NCBI RefSeq assembly: GCF_000422845.1 | Contig: NZ_KE383931.1 | Span: forward strand, 531,366 to 563,365 | Direction: 5' to 3' | From: Oceanobacter kriegii DSM 6294 | Lineage (GTDB): Bacteria > Pseudomonadota > Gammaproteobacteria > Pseudomonadales > Oceanobacteraceae | Length of the DNA: 32,000 nucleotides | In this document: piece after piece, positions 1,959-24,274 of the stretch | Position numbering within the stretch: the first letter of the stretch is position 1 | Layout of the letters: each line of letters starts with the position of its first letter | Notes under the pieces: model-generated | The model's input: only the letters and a program-made list of their open reading frames with translations | The model's database searches: none | What the model was told of the DNA's origin: nothing | Translations under genes and position numbers: made by a program

Positions 1959-1982
1959 TGACGATTCGTCAAAATAAAACAG
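1959..1982. promoter_or_regulatory. Candidate TetR operator, copy 1 (TGACGATTCGTCAAAATAAAACAG)
   Basis: It contains a perfect 7-1-7 palindrome TTGACGA-T-TCGTCAA (1958-1972), 13 nt upstream of the tetR ATG. It is the first of three related 24-mers. Confidence 0.5.
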
Positions 1983-2038
1983 TTAAAAAAGCGAAGTGGT
2001 TCAACCCAACTTCGCCGATGGAAAACGCTGACGTTTTC

Positions 2039-2062
2039 TGACTAATCGTCAAAATAAAACAG
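2039..2062. promoter_or_regulatory. Candidate TetR operator, copy 2 (TGACTAATCGTCAAAATAAAACAG)
   Basis: 22/24 identical to copy 1, 80 bp away. Confidence 0.45.
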
Positions 2063-2120
2063 CCCACTCTGATCGAAAAGCATCCAGATTGAAACAATCC
2101 GTTCCCTCAGGCGCTTTAAT

Positions 2121-2144
2121 TGACGATCCGTCGAAATAAAGTCG
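2121..2144. promoter_or_regulatory. Candidate TetR operator, copy 3 (TGACGATCCGTCGAAATAAAGTCG)
   Basis: 19/24 identical to copy 1, 82 bp from copy 2. It retains the TGACGAnnCGTC half-sites. Confidence 0.35.
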
Positions 2145-2854
2145 TCGACCAACAAGCATCCCGGTACGGATGCTCAGGAGTCAGAGGTCAGGAGTCAGAC
2201 CGGAGAGGCGCGTAAGTTAATCAGGTAGCTCCCTAGGTAGCTCCGGGTGGTTAAGGAAGCCTTTAAAGAAACAAAAACGAATTGATCAGCACGGAAAATA
2301 AATAGTGATATCCGGGTAATACAATACCAATATCTAATAGCAAAGCGGTTATTCACTACCCTTTTGAATAAACAAAACCTGGATTACAAATAATAACGTT
2401 ACAGCCTTAAAGCACAGCTCAAATGTGTCAATAAGGTGACATTTTGATGGGTGTATTTATTCACCGAGCACAGGTCAGCGCTGACATAAGCCGCGCCTTT
2501 GACCACTTTGGCACAGACAGGATTTGTGCCCGTCTGATCGCACCTCAAACTGCGCCCAAAACGCCCGTCATCAGGGCTTTGGTGCTCAATCACCCTGTCA
2601 GTCCGACCGCGATAAAAAGCCGCCAGCATAAAACGTGATATACTCTGCTCAGCGCAATATCAATGAAACCGTTCACCCGGATATGAGTTTGAATTGCCCT
2701 GCCATTATGAGAATCATTTTCATTAAGTTGTTTGCGCAGGGACATGCTAAAAACGGCGGCTTTTGCATACGAATGGGCTGGCTCGAAAAATAGCCAAAAA
2801 ACAACACATTCACAAAAGTTATTACAGATATTCACGCCATTTATAGCGTTTTCA

Positions 2855-2883
2855 TTGAGCTGTTAACGAGTTTTCAATATCTT
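2855..2883 (+). promoter_or_regulatory. Candidate sigma-70 promoter for acnB (TTGAGC-17-TATCTT)
   Basis: Hexamers read directly from the sequence: -35 at 2855-2860 and -10 at 2878-2883, about 40 nt upstream of the acnB ATG. This is pattern matching only. Confidence 0.3.
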
Positions 2884-2923
2884 ATTGCGCGATCAAAATT
2901 AGACTAGATGAGATGTGGGCGCT

Positions 2924-15793: not shown

Positions 15794-15866
15794 GGTCAAA
15801 GCTCCAGAAAGATAAAAGTGAGGGTCTCTCTAAAGCCTAGACCACATTTTCAAGAAGGAACGTTTG

Positions 15867-15883
15867 TTAACCGCAATTGTTAA
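15867..15883. promoter_or_regulatory. LysR-type (T-N11-A) inverted repeat TTAAC-N7-GTTAA upstream of gcvT
   Basis: Perfect 5-bp arms, about 190 nt upstream of the gcvT ATG. This is the kind of site used by GcvA-like regulators. Pattern matching only. Confidence 0.3.
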
Positions 15884-16068
15884 TTTTGATACAAAACGGC
15901 CCGAAACCACCGCTTTCCCGCCACCACACAGTGAACGGTAACTGCTCCGTACAGTGCAATTGCTGTGCTCCCGTTCACAACACTGTATACTGCTTGCCCT
16001 TTTTTGATCTCGCCCGGCCCACATCCTGAGTGGCCACGTGGCGCCAACGGATAACAACAGGACGGCTC

Positions 16069-20850: not shown

Positions 20851-20871
20851 GCGCCCCAACCCATGGGGCGC
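20851..20871 (+). terminator. Hairpin after the gcvP stop (no T-tract)
   Basis: GCGCCCCA-accca-TGGGGCGC forms an 8-bp GC-rich stem and is followed by AAATCAACG, so it is probably a leaky terminator. It sits exactly at the left edge of the low-GC islet. Confidence 0.4.
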
Positions 20872-20879
20872 AAATCAAC

Positions 20880-21527
20880 GTGAAACCAGAAATTCGTGCC
20901 AAACTCAGACTAATTGATCACCTAATAGCGACCCAAAGGTTAGCTGAAGGTGATCTTTTAATTAGTGAATTTAGACTTCCAAATAAAAAAAGGCGCGTTG
21001 ACTTGGCACTTTTCACAACAAGCCGAGCGATAGCTTTCGAAATAAAAACAGAAGGTGATAATTTATCCAGACTTTCTGAACAAGTAAAAGATCTTTCCAC
21101 TCATTTTGATAAGGTCATAGTTTTTTGCGCTCATAAACACTACAACAATGCGAAGAAATTAGTTTCTAAAAGTATAGAAATATGGTCTTACAACGATAAG
21201 AAAACAAAGCTATTACAACGAGGTAGATCCAACATAAAAAACACTAAAGCCATAATAGAACTACTTCCAAAGTATGAGCGTCACACGATCAAAAACAGAA
21301 ATGACGCACTAAATAAAATAAGAAAAAAATTCAGAAAGAATATCGAATTGTTTTGGAAAATCAGATCCCAAAAGAAAAATTGCGACTTAAAAGATCTGAT
21401 ATCAATTAGCAGGACTCCCCCAAAGGATCAAACCAAGAAAACCAGCGATGATCTCTGGACTTCTATCATAGAGGATCAATCTTCCCAATCTTCATCTGAA
21501 TCAATTTCAGATAATTCTTCATCATAA
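20880..21527 (+). CDS. PD-(D/E)xK nuclease-fold protein, sce7726/MmcB-like
   Basis: ORF track 20823..21527. The motif E30...D41(VDLAL)...E54-I-K56(FEIKT), followed by LSRLSEQ...FDKV, matches my recollection of the sce7726/MmcB pattern. The start is uncertain: GTG 20880 is preferred, and the TTG starts at 20823 and 20844 lie in or next to the gcvP 3' end. The Lys-rich C-terminal half ends in a Ser-rich tail. Confidence 0.6.
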   Translation: MKPEIRAKLRLIDHLIATQRLAEGDLLISEFRLPNKKRRVDLALFTTSRAIAFEIKTEGDNLSRLSEQVKDLSTHFDKVIVFCAHKHYNNAKKLVSKSIEIWSYNDKKTKLLQRGRSNIKNTKAIIELLPKYERHTIKNRNDALNKIRKKFRKNIELFWKIRSQKKNCDLKDLISISRTPPKDQTKKTSDDLWTSIIEDQSSQSSSESISDNSSS

Positions 21528-22564
21528 TGAAGCTGATTGTATAAATGTATGTTTATTCTTACTGCTGTCGACTTCATCGGAGTGGATATTGCGTAATCGT
21601 TACCTTGAGCCGTCAGTTCAATCATTTGAGTACCCCATACTTTCAATTCAGGCTGCCAATAATCTTTCACCATAATCTCATTTGCAGCCCACCTATATTG
21701 ATCAGTTCTATTGGGTATTGAGCCTTCCCTATAACGAACATAACGCCAACTATTTTTCAAAGGAAAGTCAATCCTAGGAACAGGAACACCACCACCGCCT
21801 CTATTCTCTTTGACACGTGCACTTGCATAATCAGAGTAAATTAAATTGCCTCTGAAATTCTTGATAAGATTGTTATACAAAAGCCTTTCACATATTGGGT
21901 TTTCTCCATTTTCCGTACCCCCAAATCCATCTGGGAAAGAACTACCACTGATACAAAAATCAGCACTTGGAAAAATACTCCGAGCCTTTTCTAGCCAACC
22001 CAAGAAAATATCATTATATTTTTGCGTACCAGAATCAATCCTTCCAAAATCAAAAATAATTAAACAAGGATCAAAACCAGACAGCATATTAATTAATCCC
22101 AGCCAGCGTCCAGTCTCGATATCAAGCAAGGAAAACCGTATAACAAATTGCCGCCCAGACCTAGTTAGAGTTTGACACTGTTCAATCACATGGTCGAATT
22201 CTTCCGTTTGAATCACCGGTATGCACCAATCATACGAGAGTACAAATTCAGTCCAGTTTTTATACCCCCCCGTCGGATCCATCAAAGCCTTTAATTGTTC
22301 ATAGACCGGACGTGGAAAACTTCCACTAACCAAATAATCCTTATTTTCAAAAACATATTCATAATCTAAATCTAATATGACATTCCCCGCTCCCAAACTC
22401 TCGAGCTTAGATATCGAATTCGAAATATCTTTAGCAGCCAACCATCCTTTCAGCTTTATACATGGAGATAGGTTTTTTTTATCTTTATCTGGAAGTTCAG
22501 AAAACGCCATAATTTCAGCAGGACTTAGAGATAATATAGGAAGGTATTCAGTTGATTCATACAT
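21476..22564 (-). CDS. Beta_protein-family (sce7725-like; P4 beta-like) protein, function unknown
   Basis: 362 aa. The N-terminus reads Y-L-P-I-L-x6-E-x2-A-x2-E-L, with later blocks GSSFPDGF, IYSDYASARV and NSWRYVRY. Length and motifs fit my memory of Pfam Beta_protein (PF14350). GGTGA lies 6 nt upstream of the ATG, and the gene starts 2 nt after the peptidase stop. Confidence 0.55.
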   Translation of the reverse strand: MYESTEYLPILSLSPAEIMAFSELPDKDKKNLSPCIKLKGWLAAKDISNSISKLESLGAGNVILDLDYEYVFENKDYLVSGSFPRPVYEQLKALMDPTGGYKNWTEFVLSYDWCIPVIQTEEFDHVIEQCQTLTRSGRQFVIRFSLLDIETGRWLGLINMLSGFDPCLIIFDFGRIDSGTQKYNDIFLGWLEKARSIFPSADFCISGSSFPDGFGGTENGENPICERLLYNNLIKNFRGNLIYSDYASARVKENRGGGGVPVPRIDFPLKNSWRYVRYREGSIPNRTDQYRWAANEIMVKDYWQPELKVWGTQMIELTAQGNDYAISTPMKSTAVRINIHLYNQLHYDEELSEIDSDEDWED

Positions 22565-22566
22565 TT

Positions 22567-23070
22567 TTAATCACCCACCCTAATTTTCAAAGCCACCACA
22601 GATACTTCTAGCTCTTGAGCAGCTTTTTCAAGGGCATACTCTTTTTTCTCACCTGCATAGTTAGAGATGCAACTTCTAACAAGATTTCCAGGCATCAATA
22701 TGTCAGCTGCGATCCTATTAGCTTGCGTTTCCATTGCGTTTGAAAGATTTGATCTATACAAAACATCATCGACAATACCATCTCCTATTAAATCCCGATG
22801 AAGAAGGAAATGACCAATTTCATGTGCAATTGTAAATCGCTGCCTTTCTGATGTATCGTGACGATTAACCTTGATAACAAACGTTCCATCTATATTTCTT
22901 ATCTCTCCAGAGACACTAGCGGACAGCGTCGACTTCTTAACAACCAACCCCAAAGACTTCGCGACAGCACCAATTTTCACGGGGGCTTCGAGTTGAAAAC
23001 TAGAGATTATTCTTTGAATTTCGGGAGAGATCAAATCCCACTCTCGCGAGTACTCGTTTAACTTAACCAT
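22567..23070 (-). CDS. ImmA/IrrE-family zinc metallo-endopeptidase (COG2856 / Peptidase_M78)
   Basis: HExxH is present as HEIGH (nt 22810-22824, verified codon by codon) in the context RQRFTIAHEIGHFLLH...METQANRIAADILMP. I prefer ATG 23070 (MVKLNEY...), which overlaps the upstream stop as ATGGTTAA. The track start 23115 is unlikely. Confidence 0.85.
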   Translation of the reverse strand: MVKLNEYSREWDLISPEIQRIISSFQLEAPVKIGAVAKSLGLVVKKSTLSASVSGEIRNIDGTFVIKVNRHDTSERQRFTIAHEIGHFLLHRDLIGDGIVDDVLYRSNLSNAMETQANRIAADILMPGNLVRSCISNYAGEKKEYALEKAAQELEVSVVALKIRVGD

Positions 23071-23731
23071 TATTATCGATCCCCCGATAAATTGCTCTTT
23101 CAACCCCGTTCTCAACCATATTATAAACCAGTTTTTCCAAACCTTTTTGGAAATCGCTCTTCTCTACAACATTACCATCAGCGTCATACAAAGAGCGATC
23201 ATCGACAATCGAATTCTTGAGGGATTCATATACCATTTGAGGCAATTCCTGCTCAGCCACTCTATTTATTTCCTGTCGAGCCTTTTCAGATACTAAATTT
23301 TGAAGTTTTTTGTATCCAAATATTGATGCAACACCAATCAATATCGTAAGTGCCGTCATAATAACGGTTATAGTACCTAAAAGGACGCTGACCCACCCAC
23401 TCCAGCCCTCATCTCTAGAGTTGATTTTATTCAACCCTACTTTTACAGCTTCTAATGCCTCACTAATTTCAGCAATAGATTCCGAATTAGTAGCAATAGA
23501 CTGCGAGCCCAACTCTAAACCATTTAAAGAGTCTTGAATTTTATCTATGCGGGATCTCAAATAAGATATTTCATCATATTGCCGATGAACTTGACCGAGA
23601 ACAACATCTGGATTCTCAGAGGGAAAAACAAGATCTCTTGAAACATCCTTATCGAATTCCGAATTACTTTCCGCATGTAAATTAACTGCCCCACCAAGAA
23701 ATATCGAGATAAATATCAACAACTTCCACAT
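23063..23731 (-). CDS. Bitopic membrane protein: signal peptide, periplasmic coiled-coil, one TM, ~70-aa cytoplasmic tail; no recognisable family
   Basis: The signal peptide is MWKLLIFISIFLGGAVNLHA|ES. A heptad-like region follows (ISYLRSRIDKIQDSLNGLELG...ALEAVKVGLNKI), then the TM segment WVSVLLGTITVIMTALTILIGVASIFGY. GAGGA lies 7 nt upstream of the ATG. It is the first gene of the islet operon. Confidence 0.7.
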   Translation of the reverse strand: MWKLLIFISIFLGGAVNLHAESNSEFDKDVSRDLVFPSENPDVVLGQVHRQYDEISYLRSRIDKIQDSLNGLELGSQSIATNSESIAEISEALEAVKVGLNKINSRDEGWSGWVSVLLGTITVIMTALTILIGVASIFGYKKLQNLVSEKARQEINRVAEQELPQMVYESLKNSIVDDRSLYDADGNVVEKSDFQKGLEKLVYNMVENGVERAIYRGIDNNG

Positions 23732-23764
23732 CAGTTCATCCTCAATTCAGTCTCCATCTAGTGG

Positions 23765-23792
23765 ATAATAAAGTAACTTGTATAAATAACAA
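23765..23792 (-). promoter_or_regulatory. Candidate sigma-70 promoter of the islet operon (TTGTTA-16-TATTAT)
   Basis: Read on the minus strand: -35 at plus 23787-23792 and -10 at plus 23765-23770, about 35 nt upstream of the ATG at 23731. Confidence 0.4.
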
Positions 23793-24274
23793 TCATAAAT
23801 CTATTGCTTACTGCCCTCTATATGACCATACTGCAGCATTAGCTATATGGACTACCAGATTTTATACACCGGTCAGAGCCTTTCCCCACTCACATAACCT
23901 CTCGCACTGGAATAGCGCAGTGTTCTGCCAAGTCAACGTAACCCCGTTTCACTAGGTTATGGTGAAGATATTCGATTTTCTGCCGCATCATATCAACGCC
24001 CATCTCGCTCTCACGCTCCGCGCTGTATTACAGCGGTTTCACACTCACGACGCCTGTCTTTCCCGGGAGCGCGGGCCGCTGGCCCGCTCTTGATGCAGAC
24101 GACCTGCGCGGCCCGAGCCGTCCTCGCTCCCAGCCAAGTTACACAACTCCTCCCAAGACACTACTGAAGACCCATGGTCTTGTGCGTTCAGCGCCCTACA
24201 CTGAGAGAAAACAATAATAACCCGCGTGGCAGCGTGTCTTTGGACAGCATGCTGTGCGGTGAACCGGAGGTAGC

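What the first reader, a model, noticed from the sequence alone, without database searches (positions are those of the whole stretch)
21476..23731. Orphan ImmA/IrrE protease coupled to a membrane coiled-coil protein and a Beta-family protein: candidate undescribed defence / abortive-infection module
**Operon structure.** Three minus-strand genes are packed as one unit behind a single sigma-70-like promoter: 23731->23063, 23070->22567 and 22564->21476. An 8-nt ATGGTTAA stop/start overlap joins the first two, and a 2-nt gap separates the last two.

**Gene 2** carries HEIGH (22810-22824) in the RFTIAHEIGHFLLH...ETQANRIAADILMP context typical of ImmA/IrrE switch proteases.

**Gene 3** (362 aa) has the N-terminal Y-L-P-I-L...E..A motif and the SSFP / YSDYA / WRYVRY blocks that I associate with Pfam Beta_protein and the sce7725 family.

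**Missing partner.** ImmA-type proteases normally sit beside the HTH repressor they cleave (ImmR, DdrO, Xre). I find no HTH ORF anywhere in the islet. That position is taken by a signal-peptide/coiled-coil/TM protein.

**Closest known context.** From memory, the only studied context for a Beta-family protein is the gop-beta-cII module of satellite P4, which has been reported as an anti-phage hotspot system. This locus would be a rewired relative, with a membrane protein in place of the HTH and a convergent nuclease added.

**Working model (inference).** An envelope or infection signal acts through the membrane protein. The protease is then activated, and the Beta protein and/or the nuclease effector is released.
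Basis: partly seen in the sequence, partly recalled or inferred. Interest (0 to 1): 0.85.

Follow-up and report, generated by a model that had tools for sequence, protein, structure and literature searches.

The report
Peptidase-bearing relative of P4 gop-beta-cII
This 3-kb foreign islet in Oceanobacter kriegii is a four-gene relative of the phage-defence system gop-beta-cII of satellite P4, carrying an extra ImmA-like metallopeptidase that has no repressor partner, and the same cassette recurs in many proteobacteria without apparently having been described.

Summary
In detail: three tightly coupled minus-strand genes (membrane/coiled-coil protein g1, 167-aa M78 peptidase, 362-aa Beta protein) lie in a 38%-GC islet directly after gcvP.

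The convergent "nuclease" is not an add-on. It is the cII/sce7726 homologue, so Beta and cII form the core of a P4 gop-beta-cII-type system. The membrane protein occupies the Gop position, not an HTH position, although it shows no detectable homology to Gop. The real addition is the peptidase.

The four-gene cassette is conserved. All 35 Beta proteins of this clade (Gamma- and Alphaproteobacteria, one Eremiobacterota MAG) have an adjacent M78. None of 7 P4-clade Betas do. No fifth gene or HTH is conserved. The catalytic H83/E84/H87/E114 are invariant.

Beta models as a divergent TIM barrel. cII models as a PD-(D/E)XK nuclease with an invariant E/D/ExK motif. Neighbours often include integrases and known defence genes.

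Best reading: an abortive-infection-type defence cassette in which the peptidase gates a membrane effector, a nuclease, or both. The mechanism is inferred, not shown. It is a new variant of a known kind, of moderate interest.

The parts
23063..23731 (-). g1: 222-aa membrane protein. It has a signal-like hydrophobic N-terminus (residues 2-20), a coiled-coil-like segment of about residues 45-105, a TM helix at 112-140 and a cytoplasmic tail of about 80 aa. It is the positional and architectural analogue of P4 Gop.
   Evidence: - ORF; hydropathy.
- Only weak coiled-coil-type Pfam/NCBIfam hits.
- Homologues in the same position: L003 64% identity, V. vulnificus L006 E = 2e-14.
- 26 representatives at E <= 1e-3 among 1.84 billion.
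- No PADLOC or PHROG hit.
- No homology to Gop (BLASTP E = 0.16; hhalign probability 1.5%).
22567..23070 (-). g2: 167-aa stand-alone M78 (ImmA/IrrE/CapP-type) zinc metallopeptidase. The start overlaps the g1 stop by 8 nt (ATGGTTAA).
   Evidence: - Pfam PF06114 at 3.4e-19; PADLOC capP at 2.1e-29.
- PDB sequence hits: IrrE 2e-7, CapP 2e-3.
- H83, E84, H87 and E114 are 100% conserved in 33 cassette peptidases.
- 56% identical to the V. vulnificus cassette peptidase.
21476..22564 (-). g3: 362-aa Beta-family protein, a predicted divergent TIM-barrel-like fold. It starts 2 nt after the g2 stop.
   Evidence: - Pfam PF14350 at 3.8e-49; PADLOC beta at 1.8e-40.
- 26.6% identity to P4 Beta, E = 3e-22.
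- 100% identical to an O. kriegii 'beta family protein'.
- AF2 pLDDT 91, pTM 0.90.
- Only weak generic TIM-barrel matches in the PDB.
- A Beta-like fold in Gordonia phage Powerball, TM 0.67.
20880..21527 (+). cII/sce7726 homologue (215 aa from GTG 20880; NCBI aa from TTG 20844). It is convergent with g3, and the 3' ends overlap by 52 nt. The N-terminal domain is a PD-(D/E)XK nuclease fold.
   Evidence: - NCBIfam sce7726 at 1.3e-27, 97 bits against a cutoff of 70; PADLOC cll at 9.6e-28.
- BLASTP to P4 cII, E = 6e-14.
- Invariant E30, D41, E54-x-K56, D60, R64 and Q68.
- AF2 pLDDT 90, pTM 0.83.
- Foldseek hits: 3dnx 2.6e-5, SfsA-DNA, Bax1, XisH, Hjc, Can2 nuclease domain.
23765..23792 (-). Candidate sigma-70-like promoter for g1-g2-g3 (TTGTTA, 16 nt, TATTAT), 34 nt upstream of the g1 ATG.
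   Evidence: Consensus scan, 9 of 12 matches. This is not statistically supported, because the site count in the region does not exceed shuffles.
20851..20871 (.). Perfect hairpin GCGCCCCA-accca-TGGGGCGC immediately after the gcvP stop. It marks the left border of the low-GC islet.
   Evidence: Read from the sequence. It is unique in the window, with 0 expected by chance. GC falls from about 0.58 to 0.36-0.39 here.
20872..23960 (.). Low-GC islet (about 3.1 kb) carrying the four-gene cassette, between gcvP and a 192-aa hypothetical secreted protein. It has no integrase, tRNA or flanking repeats.
   Evidence: - Composition profile.
- Flanking genes are housekeeping.
- No tRNA and no convincing border repeats.
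- Same position downstream of an 85-89%-identical gcvP in a metagenome relative.

Best explanation
**What it is.** The islet is a complete four-gene anti-phage cassette belonging to a sister clade of the P4 satellite system gop-beta-cII. Its layout is:
- a small membrane protein (g1), followed by
- a stand-alone M78 zinc peptidase, followed by
- the Beta TIM-barrel protein, all co-transcribed and translationally coupled, with
- the cII-type PD-(D/E)XK nuclease encoded convergently.

**Shown here.**
- Homology of Beta and cII to the P4 proteins.
- Conservation of the four-gene unit across many proteobacteria.
- Strict co-occurrence of the peptidase with this Beta clade.
- An intact catalytic centre in the peptidase and an intact nuclease motif in cII.
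- The absence of any HTH partner.

**Inferred, by analogy with P4 and with ImmA, IrrE and CapP.** In P4, Gop is toxic unless Beta is present. ImmA, IrrE and CapP act as signal-activated switch proteases.
1. In uninfected cells, Beta (possibly together with cII) holds the membrane protein in check.
2. On infection, the peptidase cleaves a cassette-encoded protein rather than a repressor. The most likely substrates are Beta, at its flexible Gly-rich loop or its conserved acidic C-terminal tail, or the cytoplasmic tail of g1.
3. This releases the membrane effector, the nuclease, or both, and aborts the infection.

**Confidence by level.** Identity about 0.9. Defence role about 0.7. The specific protease-gating step about 0.3.
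For: **Core homology.**
- PADLOC beta 1.8e-40 and cll 9.6e-28.
- Pfam Beta_protein 3.8e-49.
- NCBIfam sce7726 above its cutoff.
- tblastn and BLASTP to P4 Beta and cII.

**Same geometry as P4.** P4 has gop 247-648, beta 651-1718 and cII 1746-2540 convergent.

**Published function of the P4 system.**
- It protects against lambda and P1, and Gop is toxic without Beta (PMC9122126).
- It is triggered to kill by phage orf184 (bioRxiv 10.1101/2023.04.06.535777).

**Conservation of the cassette.**
- g1->M78->Beta-><-cII in L003/L004, V. vulnificus L006 and about 30 of 38 reference-genome loci.
- 35 of 35 window-clade Betas have M78, against 0 of 7 P4-clade Betas.
- No fifth conserved gene.

**Active sites.**
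- Peptidase H83/E84/H87/E114 are invariant.
- The cII E/D/ExK motif is invariant and the fold is PD-(D/E)XK.

**Physical coupling.**
- 8-nt overlap and 2-nt gap between genes.
- A g1-M78 read-through fusion in a complete Sphingomonas chromosome (L025) and an M78-Beta fusion ORF in L005/P0040.

**Context.**
- Low-GC islet.
- In V. vulnificus the cassette lies next to an integrase and AlpA genes, as in P4-like satellites.
- A plasmid copy lies next to a TA pair and an integrase.
- Flanks of other loci include GajA, Drt4/6, MzaA, type IIG/III R-M, a retron PRTase, DrmMI, integrases and IS66.

**Clade-specific Beta features.** A GGGG loop of low pLDDT and an invariant DTDEDWxD tail.
Against: - No experiment exists on this clade. 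Defence is extrapolated from a Beta relative with 27% identity.
- g1 is not detectably homologous to Gop, so its toxicity is assumed from position and architecture only.
- The peptidase substrate is unknown. No cleavage site can be predicted.
- In PD-lambda-2, the M78-containing protein itself was the toxic component (PMC9519451). That does not fit a simple 'peptidase releases toxin' scheme.
- The invariant polar residues of Beta in a TIM barrel suggest an enzyme rather than a passive antitoxin.
- The L005 fusion junction lies in an A-rich homopolymer tract and could be a sequencing artefact.
- Many cassettes sit among housekeeping genes, including this one.
Confidence: 0.6

Rival explanations
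1. The nuclease is the effector. cII (PD-(D/E)XK) degrades phage or host DNA. Beta is the sensor or enzyme that controls it. g1 merely anchors the complex at the inner membrane, where phage DNA enters. The peptidase matures or activates cII or Beta.
For: - cII has an invariant catalytic motif and a nuclease fold.
- Beta and cII are the only components shared by all clades.
- Their 3' ends are tightly convergent or overlapping, from -80 to +29 nt.
- The first-position protein is replaceable by unrelated membrane proteins.
Against: - In P4 the toxic component identified genetically is Gop, not cII (PMC9122126, citing Ghisotti 1990).
- PD-lambda-2 defends with a Beta-like protein but without cII.
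- A membrane protein is present in the first position in every locus where that position is intact (L015 is disrupted there), which argues for more than a dispensable anchor.
Confidence: 0.2
2. The peptidase is itself the toxin. When released from inhibition by g1, Beta or both, it cleaves an essential host or phage protein, as suggested by the toxicity of the HTH-M78 protein of PD-lambda-2.
For: - PD-lambda-2B (HTH plus M78) is toxic on its own and works together with a Beta-like protein (PMC9519451).
- The window peptidase matches PD-Lambda-2_B at 1.2e-8, and Beta matches PD-Lambda-2_C at 1.1e-4.
- The catalytic residues are invariant.
- No cognate HTH substrate exists.
Against: - P4-clade systems function without any peptidase, so the killing activity must lie elsewhere in at least that clade.
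- The similarity to the PD-lambda-2 proteins is much weaker than to gop-beta-cII.
Confidence: 0.12
3. It is not primarily anti-phage. It is a toxin-antitoxin-like addiction or stabilisation module of mobile elements, or a leftover of one, retained here downstream of gcvP.
For: - Gop and Beta behave as a toxin-antitoxin pair.
- Cassettes sit next to integrases, IS elements and TA genes.
- The window islet has lost, or never had, any mobility gene.
- It is retained at the same site in a relative.
Against: - The P4 relative demonstrably protects against phages.
- All four ORFs and their catalytic residues are intact and conserved across phyla.
- Several loci have adjacent known defence systems.
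- TA behaviour and defence by abortive infection are not mutually exclusive.
Confidence: 0.08

Closest known systems
gop-beta-cII of satellite P4 (PADLOC gop_beta_cll; Rousset et al. 2022, PMC9122126)
   Same: - Homologous Beta (27% identity, PADLOC beta 1.8e-40) and homologous cII (PADLOC cll 9.6e-28).
- Same gene order and convergent cII.
- A small membrane plus coiled-coil protein in the first position.
- Location beside an integrase in P4-like elements, as in V. vulnificus L006.
   Different: - An M78 peptidase is inserted between the membrane protein and Beta.
- The membrane protein is not detectably homologous to Gop (hhalign probability 1.5%).
- Beta belongs to a separate clade with a GGGG loop and a DTDEDWxD tail.
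- The window copy is not on a recognisable satellite.
PD-lambda-2 (Vassallo et al. 2022, PMC9519451)
   Same: It combines an M78 peptidase domain with a Beta-like protein in one defence operon. Abortive-infection behaviour has been reported for it.
   Different: - PD-lambda-2 has a HigB-like toxin and an HTH fused to the peptidase.
- It has no membrane protein and no cII.
- Profile similarity is weak (B 1.2e-8, C 1.1e-4).
ImmA/ImmR (ICEBs1), IrrE/DdrO (Deinococcus) and CapP/CapH (CBASS regulation) switch proteases
   Same: - Same M78 catalytic domain with HExxH plus a downstream Glu.
- PADLOC capP 2.1e-29; IrrE PDB hit 2e-7.
- A size similar to ImmA (about 170 aa, from memory).
   Different: - No adjacent HTH repressor substrate, either here or in 35 related loci.
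- No C-terminal sensor domain of the IrrE/CapP type.
- The partners are a membrane protein, a TIM-barrel protein and a nuclease.
Xre-COG2856 (HTH-M78) antitoxin fusions: spr1629 family, PADLOC RmrA
   Same: The peptidase domain matches these models (NCBIfam spr1629 1.1e-9; RmrA about 1e-12).
   Different: Only the peptidase part matches, at about positions 190-290 of models of about 380 residues. There is no HTH domain, and the score is far below the family cutoff (38 against 335 bits).

Membership tests
gop-beta-cII (P4-type defence system) | Beta protein homologue (PF14350 / PADLOC beta) | tested here: met
   Pfam 3.8e-49, 168 bits against a cutoff of 27. PADLOC beta 1.8e-40. P4 Beta 26.6% identity over 95% of the length, E = 3e-22.
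gop-beta-cII (P4-type defence system) | cII / sce7726 homologue encoded convergently downstream of beta | tested here: met
   PADLOC cll 9.6e-28. NCBIfam sce7726 97 bits against a cutoff of 70. BLASTP to P4 cII, E = 6e-14. Convergent with a 52-nt 3' overlap.
gop-beta-cII (P4-type defence system) | Gop homologue upstream of beta | tested here: not met
   - No PADLOC gop hit at E <= 1 for g1 or g2.
- BLASTP of g1 against Gop, E = 0.16; of g2 against Gop, E = 3.2.
- hhalign of the g1 family against the Gop family, probability 1.5%.
- Only the position and the membrane plus coiled-coil architecture are shared.
gop-beta-cII (P4-type defence system) | Three-gene composition with nothing between gop and beta | tested here: not met
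   A 167-aa M78 peptidase gene lies between g1 and beta. This holds in 35 of 35 loci of this Beta clade.
gop-beta-cII (P4-type defence system) | Phage protection; first-gene toxicity neutralised by Beta | not testable with these tools
   Known only for P4-type loci (PMC9122126). It requires cloning and phage assays.
ImmA/IrrE/CapP switch protease modules | M78 catalytic centre (HExxH plus downstream Glu) | tested here: met
   H83, E84, H87 and E114 are present and 100% conserved in 33 homologues. Pfam M78 3.4e-19. The IrrE alignment covers the motif.
ImmA/IrrE/CapP switch protease modules | Adjacent HTH repressor substrate (ImmR, DdrO, CapH, Xre) | tested here: not met
   No HTH domain in any islet ORF. 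No conserved fifth gene within 2.5 kb of 35 cassettes.
ImmA/IrrE/CapP switch protease modules | C-terminal sensor domain (IrrE/CapP type, proteins of about 290-300 aa) | tested here: not met
   The protein is 167 aa. The PDB matches cover only residues of about 75-175 of IrrE and CapP.
PD-lambda-2 | HigB-like toxin, HTH-M78 fusion and Beta-like protein | tested here: not met
   There is no HigB-like gene and no HTH. PD-Lambda-2_B matches only through its peptidase part (positions 270-374 of 402, 1.2e-8). PD-Lambda-2_C matches at 1.1e-4. The composition is taken from PMC9519451.
sce7725/sce7726 pair (NCBIfam) | sce7726 family member | tested here: met
   The convergent ORF scores 97 bits against a cutoff of 70. 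NCBI names it 'sce7726 family protein'.
sce7725/sce7726 pair (NCBIfam) | sce7725 family member (claimed for gene 3) | tested here: not met
   No NCBIfam hit of any kind for gene 3 at E <= 1.
PD-(D/E)XK nucleases (for cII) | E...D...ExK catalytic motif on a restriction-endonuclease-like fold | tested here: met
   E30, D41, E54 and K56 are invariant in 45 sequences. The model has pLDDT 90. Foldseek hits: 3dnx 2.6e-5, SfsA, Bax1, XisH, Hjc, Can2. Nuclease activity itself is not testable here.

The most novel reading that the evidence does not exclude
The M78-bearing clade is a distinct, widespread and so far undescribed four-component defence system. In it, a stand-alone ImmA-like protease has been rewired from cleaving an HTH repressor to cleaving a system component (Beta or the cytoplasmic tail of the membrane protein). 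That would give a post-translational, protease-gated trigger for a membrane effector and a nuclease. It would also mean that Beta, an unstudied TIM-barrel family with an invariant polar pocket, is the phage sensor or a signalling enzyme.
Probability: 0.3. Interest if true: 0.7.

Novelty: new variant of a known kind. Interest (0 to 1): 0.55.

Why it matters
- **The parent system is unexplained.** gop-beta-cII is a validated anti-phage system whose mechanism is unknown. Beta and cII have no solved structure and no assigned activity.
- **This clade may be the commoner form.** In the reference-genome sample, 31 of 38 loci belong to it. It adds a recognisable enzymatic switch, which gives an experimental handle through catalytic mutants and cleavage assays on how the whole family is triggered.
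- **It extends the known partners of ImmA/IrrE-type peptidases.** It is a clear case of such a peptidase operating without any HTH partner, which widens the known logic of this protease family in immunity.
- **It matters for annotation.** Tools that require a Gop match would probably miss these cassettes.

Tried and rejected
1. **Is P4 Gop an M78 peptidase?** Rejected. Pfam shows no M78 in Gop, and BLASTP gives E = 3.2.
2. **Is g1 homologous to Gop?** BLASTP, the PADLOC gop model and hhalign of a 27-sequence g1 profile against a 6-sequence Gop profile are all negative. Only the architecture is shared.
3. **Is gene 3 an sce7725 member?** No NCBIfam hit.
4. **Is there a hidden HTH or a fifth gene?** Small-ORF listing, Pfam scans and clustering of 900 flanking ORFs from 35 loci found none.
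5. **Are there mobility signatures at the islet borders?** No tRNA, no integrase and no convincing direct repeats. A 37-aa ORF at 24003->23890 reminded me of the C-terminus of IS200/RAYT transposases, but it gets no Pfam support.
6. **Do Beta and cII have solved structures by sequence?** None.
7. **Does Beta's fold indicate a function?** Foldseek against the PDB gives only generic TIM barrels (TM 0.3-0.4). BFVD gives an uncharacterised Gordonia phage protein.
9. **RNA families.** Rfam scan of the window gave no hits.
10. **Literature on an M78-containing gop-beta-cII variant.** Nothing found. Subscription-only papers are not covered.
11. **Single-sequence k-mer search with cII.** It returned only 2 relatives. 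An alignment query was needed.

Full report
**1.

The window carries three minus-strand ORFs at 23731-23063 (g1, 222 aa), 23070-22567 (g2, 167 aa) and 22564-21476 (g3, 362 aa).
- The sequence shows the ATGGTTAA start/stop overlap between g1 and g2, and a 2-nt gap between g2 and g3.
- All three genes have purine-rich Shine-Dalgarno-like stretches upstream of the start codon.
- The genes sit in a sharply bounded low-GC block (0.36-0.39, against 0.52-0.60 around it).
- The block begins right after a perfect hairpin that follows the gcvP stop codon (20851-20871).
- The flanking genes are housekeeping: gcvT, gcvP, an amidohydrolase and an ABC transporter.
- The proposed promoter is a 9/12 consensus match (23792-23765). 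Such matches are no more frequent here than in shuffled sequence, so it is plausible but unproven.

**2. What the proteins are.**

*g2* is an M78 peptidase.
- Pfam gives 3.4e-19, and the PADLOC capP model gives 2.1e-29.
- IrrE and CapP are its nearest solved relatives by sequence.
- It comprises only the catalytic core, with HEIGH at residues 83-87 and Glu114.

*g3* is a Beta-family protein.
- Pfam gives 3.8e-49, and the PADLOC beta model gives 1.8e-40.
- It is 26.6% identical to P4 Beta.
- NCBIfam gives it no match, so the sce7725 link is not reproduced.

- It passes the NCBIfam sce7726 cutoff (97 against 70 bits).
- It matches the PADLOC cll model at 9.6e-28.
- It aligns to P4 cII at E = 6e-14.

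*g1* has a signal-like N-terminus, a coiled-coil-like segment, one TM helix and a cytoplasmic tail. It matches nothing in Pfam, NCBIfam, PADLOC or PHROGs.

**3. Comparison with the real P4 locus.**
- P4 encodes gop (133 aa) and beta in tandem, with cII convergent.
- A Pasteurella phage has the same trio.
- Gop is not a peptidase. It is a small protein with two N-terminal TM helices followed by a coiled coil.
- So the window's membrane protein occupies the Gop position and the peptidase is the extra gene.
- g1 and Gop are not detectably homologous, either pairwise or profile against profile (hhalign probability 1.5%).

**4. The cassette is a conserved unit.**
- The window's Beta is 100% identical to an Oceanobacter kriegii protein, and it has hundreds of relatives.
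- Neighbourhoods of a 69%-identical metagenome relative and of a Vibrio vulnificus homologue show the same four genes. In Vibrio the cassette lies next to an integrase and AlpA genes, the layout of P4-like satellites.
- A scan of species-representative genomes returned 38 Beta loci. The search pattern admitted the consensus of both clades.
- Classifying their ORFs with phmmer shows the g1-like -> M78 -> Beta -> <- cII arrangement in about 30 of them. They come from Gamma- and Alphaproteobacteria and one Eremiobacterota MAG.
- Beta splits into two clades that correlate perfectly with the peptidase. All 35 window-clade Betas have it and none of the 7 P4-clade Betas do.
- g1 homologues are recognisable but diverge fast: 26 representatives at E <= 1e-3 among 1.84 billion.
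- Gammaproteobacterial g1 versions carry the periplasmic coiled coil. Alphaproteobacterial ones are Gop-like in layout, with two TM helices, a cytoplasmic helical tail and an acidic C-terminus.
- No fifth gene, and in particular no HTH gene, is conserved near the cassette.
- The Beta and cII 3' ends are always tightly convergent, from an 80-nt overlap to a 29-nt gap.

**5. Signs of function.**

*Peptidase.* Its metal-binding and catalytic residues (H83, E84, H87, E114), and some 35 other positions, are conserved in at least 93% of 33 sequences.

*cII.*
- E30, D41, E54-x-K56, D60, R64 and Q68 are invariant.
- The AlphaFold model is confident (pLDDT 90).
- It matches PD-(D/E)XK nucleases: 3dnx, SfsA with DNA, Bax1, XisH, Hjc and the Can2 nuclease domain.

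*Beta.*
- It models confidently (pLDDT 91, pTM 0.90) as an alternating beta/alpha protein.
- It matches only generic TIM barrels, and weakly. A Beta-like fold also occurs in a Gordonia phage protein.
- Its many invariant polar residues suggest an active site. That is an inference.
- The peptidase-associated clade has a Gly-rich loop of low confidence and a nearly invariant C-terminal DTDEDWxD tail.

*Fusion ORFs.* Two exist.
- g1-M78 in a complete Sphingomonas chromosome, where the g1 stop is lost and M78 keeps its own ATG.
- M78-Beta in L005, where the junction lies in an A-rich tract and may be an artefact.

**6. Context.**
- The window islet has no tRNA, integrase or border repeats.
- A metagenome relative has the cassette at the same place. 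Its gcvP is 85-89% identical, whereas its cassette proteins are 64-69% identical.
- Elsewhere the cassette's neighbours vary widely. Among 111 flanking proteins there are integrases, IS66 transposases and Fic/DOC proteins.
- About a dozen of those 111 proteins give strong hits to known defence proteins: GajA, Drt4, Drt6, MzaA, type II/IIG/III R-M, a retron PRTase and DrmMI.
- A rhizobial plasmid copy lies beside a TA pair and an integrase.

**7. Mechanism.**

From the literature:
- P4 gop-beta-cII protects against lambda and P1, and Gop is toxic without Beta (PMC9122126).
- A phage accessory gene, orf184, triggers its cell-death activity.
- PD-lambda-2 joins a HigB-like protein, an HTH-M78 fusion that is toxic on its own, and a Beta-like protein needed for defence (PMC9519451).

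On that basis I propose that the cassette is an abortive-infection-type system.
- The peptidase has no repressor to cleave, so it would act on a cassette component (Beta or the g1 tail).
- That cleavage would release the membrane effector, the nuclease, or both.
- The identity of the system is well supported. The defence role is a reasoned extrapolation. The gating step is inference.

Rivals are that the nuclease is the effector, that the peptidase is itself the toxin, or that the cassette is mainly an addiction module.

**8. Novelty.**
- I found no description of the peptidase-bearing variant in the searchable literature.
- PADLOC-DB v2 has no model matching g1.
- The components and the parent system are known, so this is a new variant of a known kind rather than a new category.
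I score it 0.55.

Noticed in passing
window 20851-20871: A perfect 8-bp-stem hairpin (GCGCCCCA-accca-TGGGGCGC) lies directly after the gcvP stop, exactly where GC content drops. It is probably the gcvP terminator, and it may be the insertion boundary. The annotated cII start (TTG 20844) would overlap it.
   Followed up: partly
window 23890-24003 (minus strand): A 37-aa ORF (MGVDMMRQKIEYLHHNLVKRGYVDLAEHC...) sits at the right border of the islet. From memory, it resembles the C-terminal YIHxNPVxxGLV motif of IS200/RAYT-type Y1 transposases. Pfam gives no hit, so a mobility-gene remnant is unproven.
   Followed up: partly
L025 4973-5983 (Sphingomonas sp. 7/4-4 chromosome) and L005 383-2008: Two fusion ORFs occur within the cassette family: g1-M78 through loss of the stop codon, and M78-Beta (541 aa, P0040). 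The second has an A-rich homopolymer at the junction and may be a sequencing artefact.
   Followed up: partly
L003/L004 (metagenome contigs): A relative carries the same cassette directly downstream of a gcvP that is 85-89% identical, while its cassette proteins are only 64-69% identical. The site is the same, and the cargo evolves faster than the housekeeping neighbour.
   Followed up: partly
window 21476-21527, and 40 other loci: Beta and cII are always convergent, with 3' ends from an 80-nt overlap to a 29-nt gap (52-nt overlap here). Antisense or transcriptional-interference regulation between the two units is possible.
   Followed up: no
window 15800-16030: No Rfam family, including no glycine riboswitch, was detected upstream of gcvT or anywhere else in the window at gathering thresholds.
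   Followed up: no
window 1973-2914: An intergenic stretch of about 940 nt has lower GC (0.44). It lies between a 255-aa minus-strand ORF that looks like a TetR-type regulator (not tested) and a 933-aa ORF. It has no long ORF and no Rfam hit.
   Followed up: no
L002 (Pasteurella phage Pmp11) 5099-5881, and P0145-P0167: Pasteurellaceae cII homologues carry an additional SAP DNA-binding domain (PF02037). This is consistent with cII acting on DNA.
   Followed up: no
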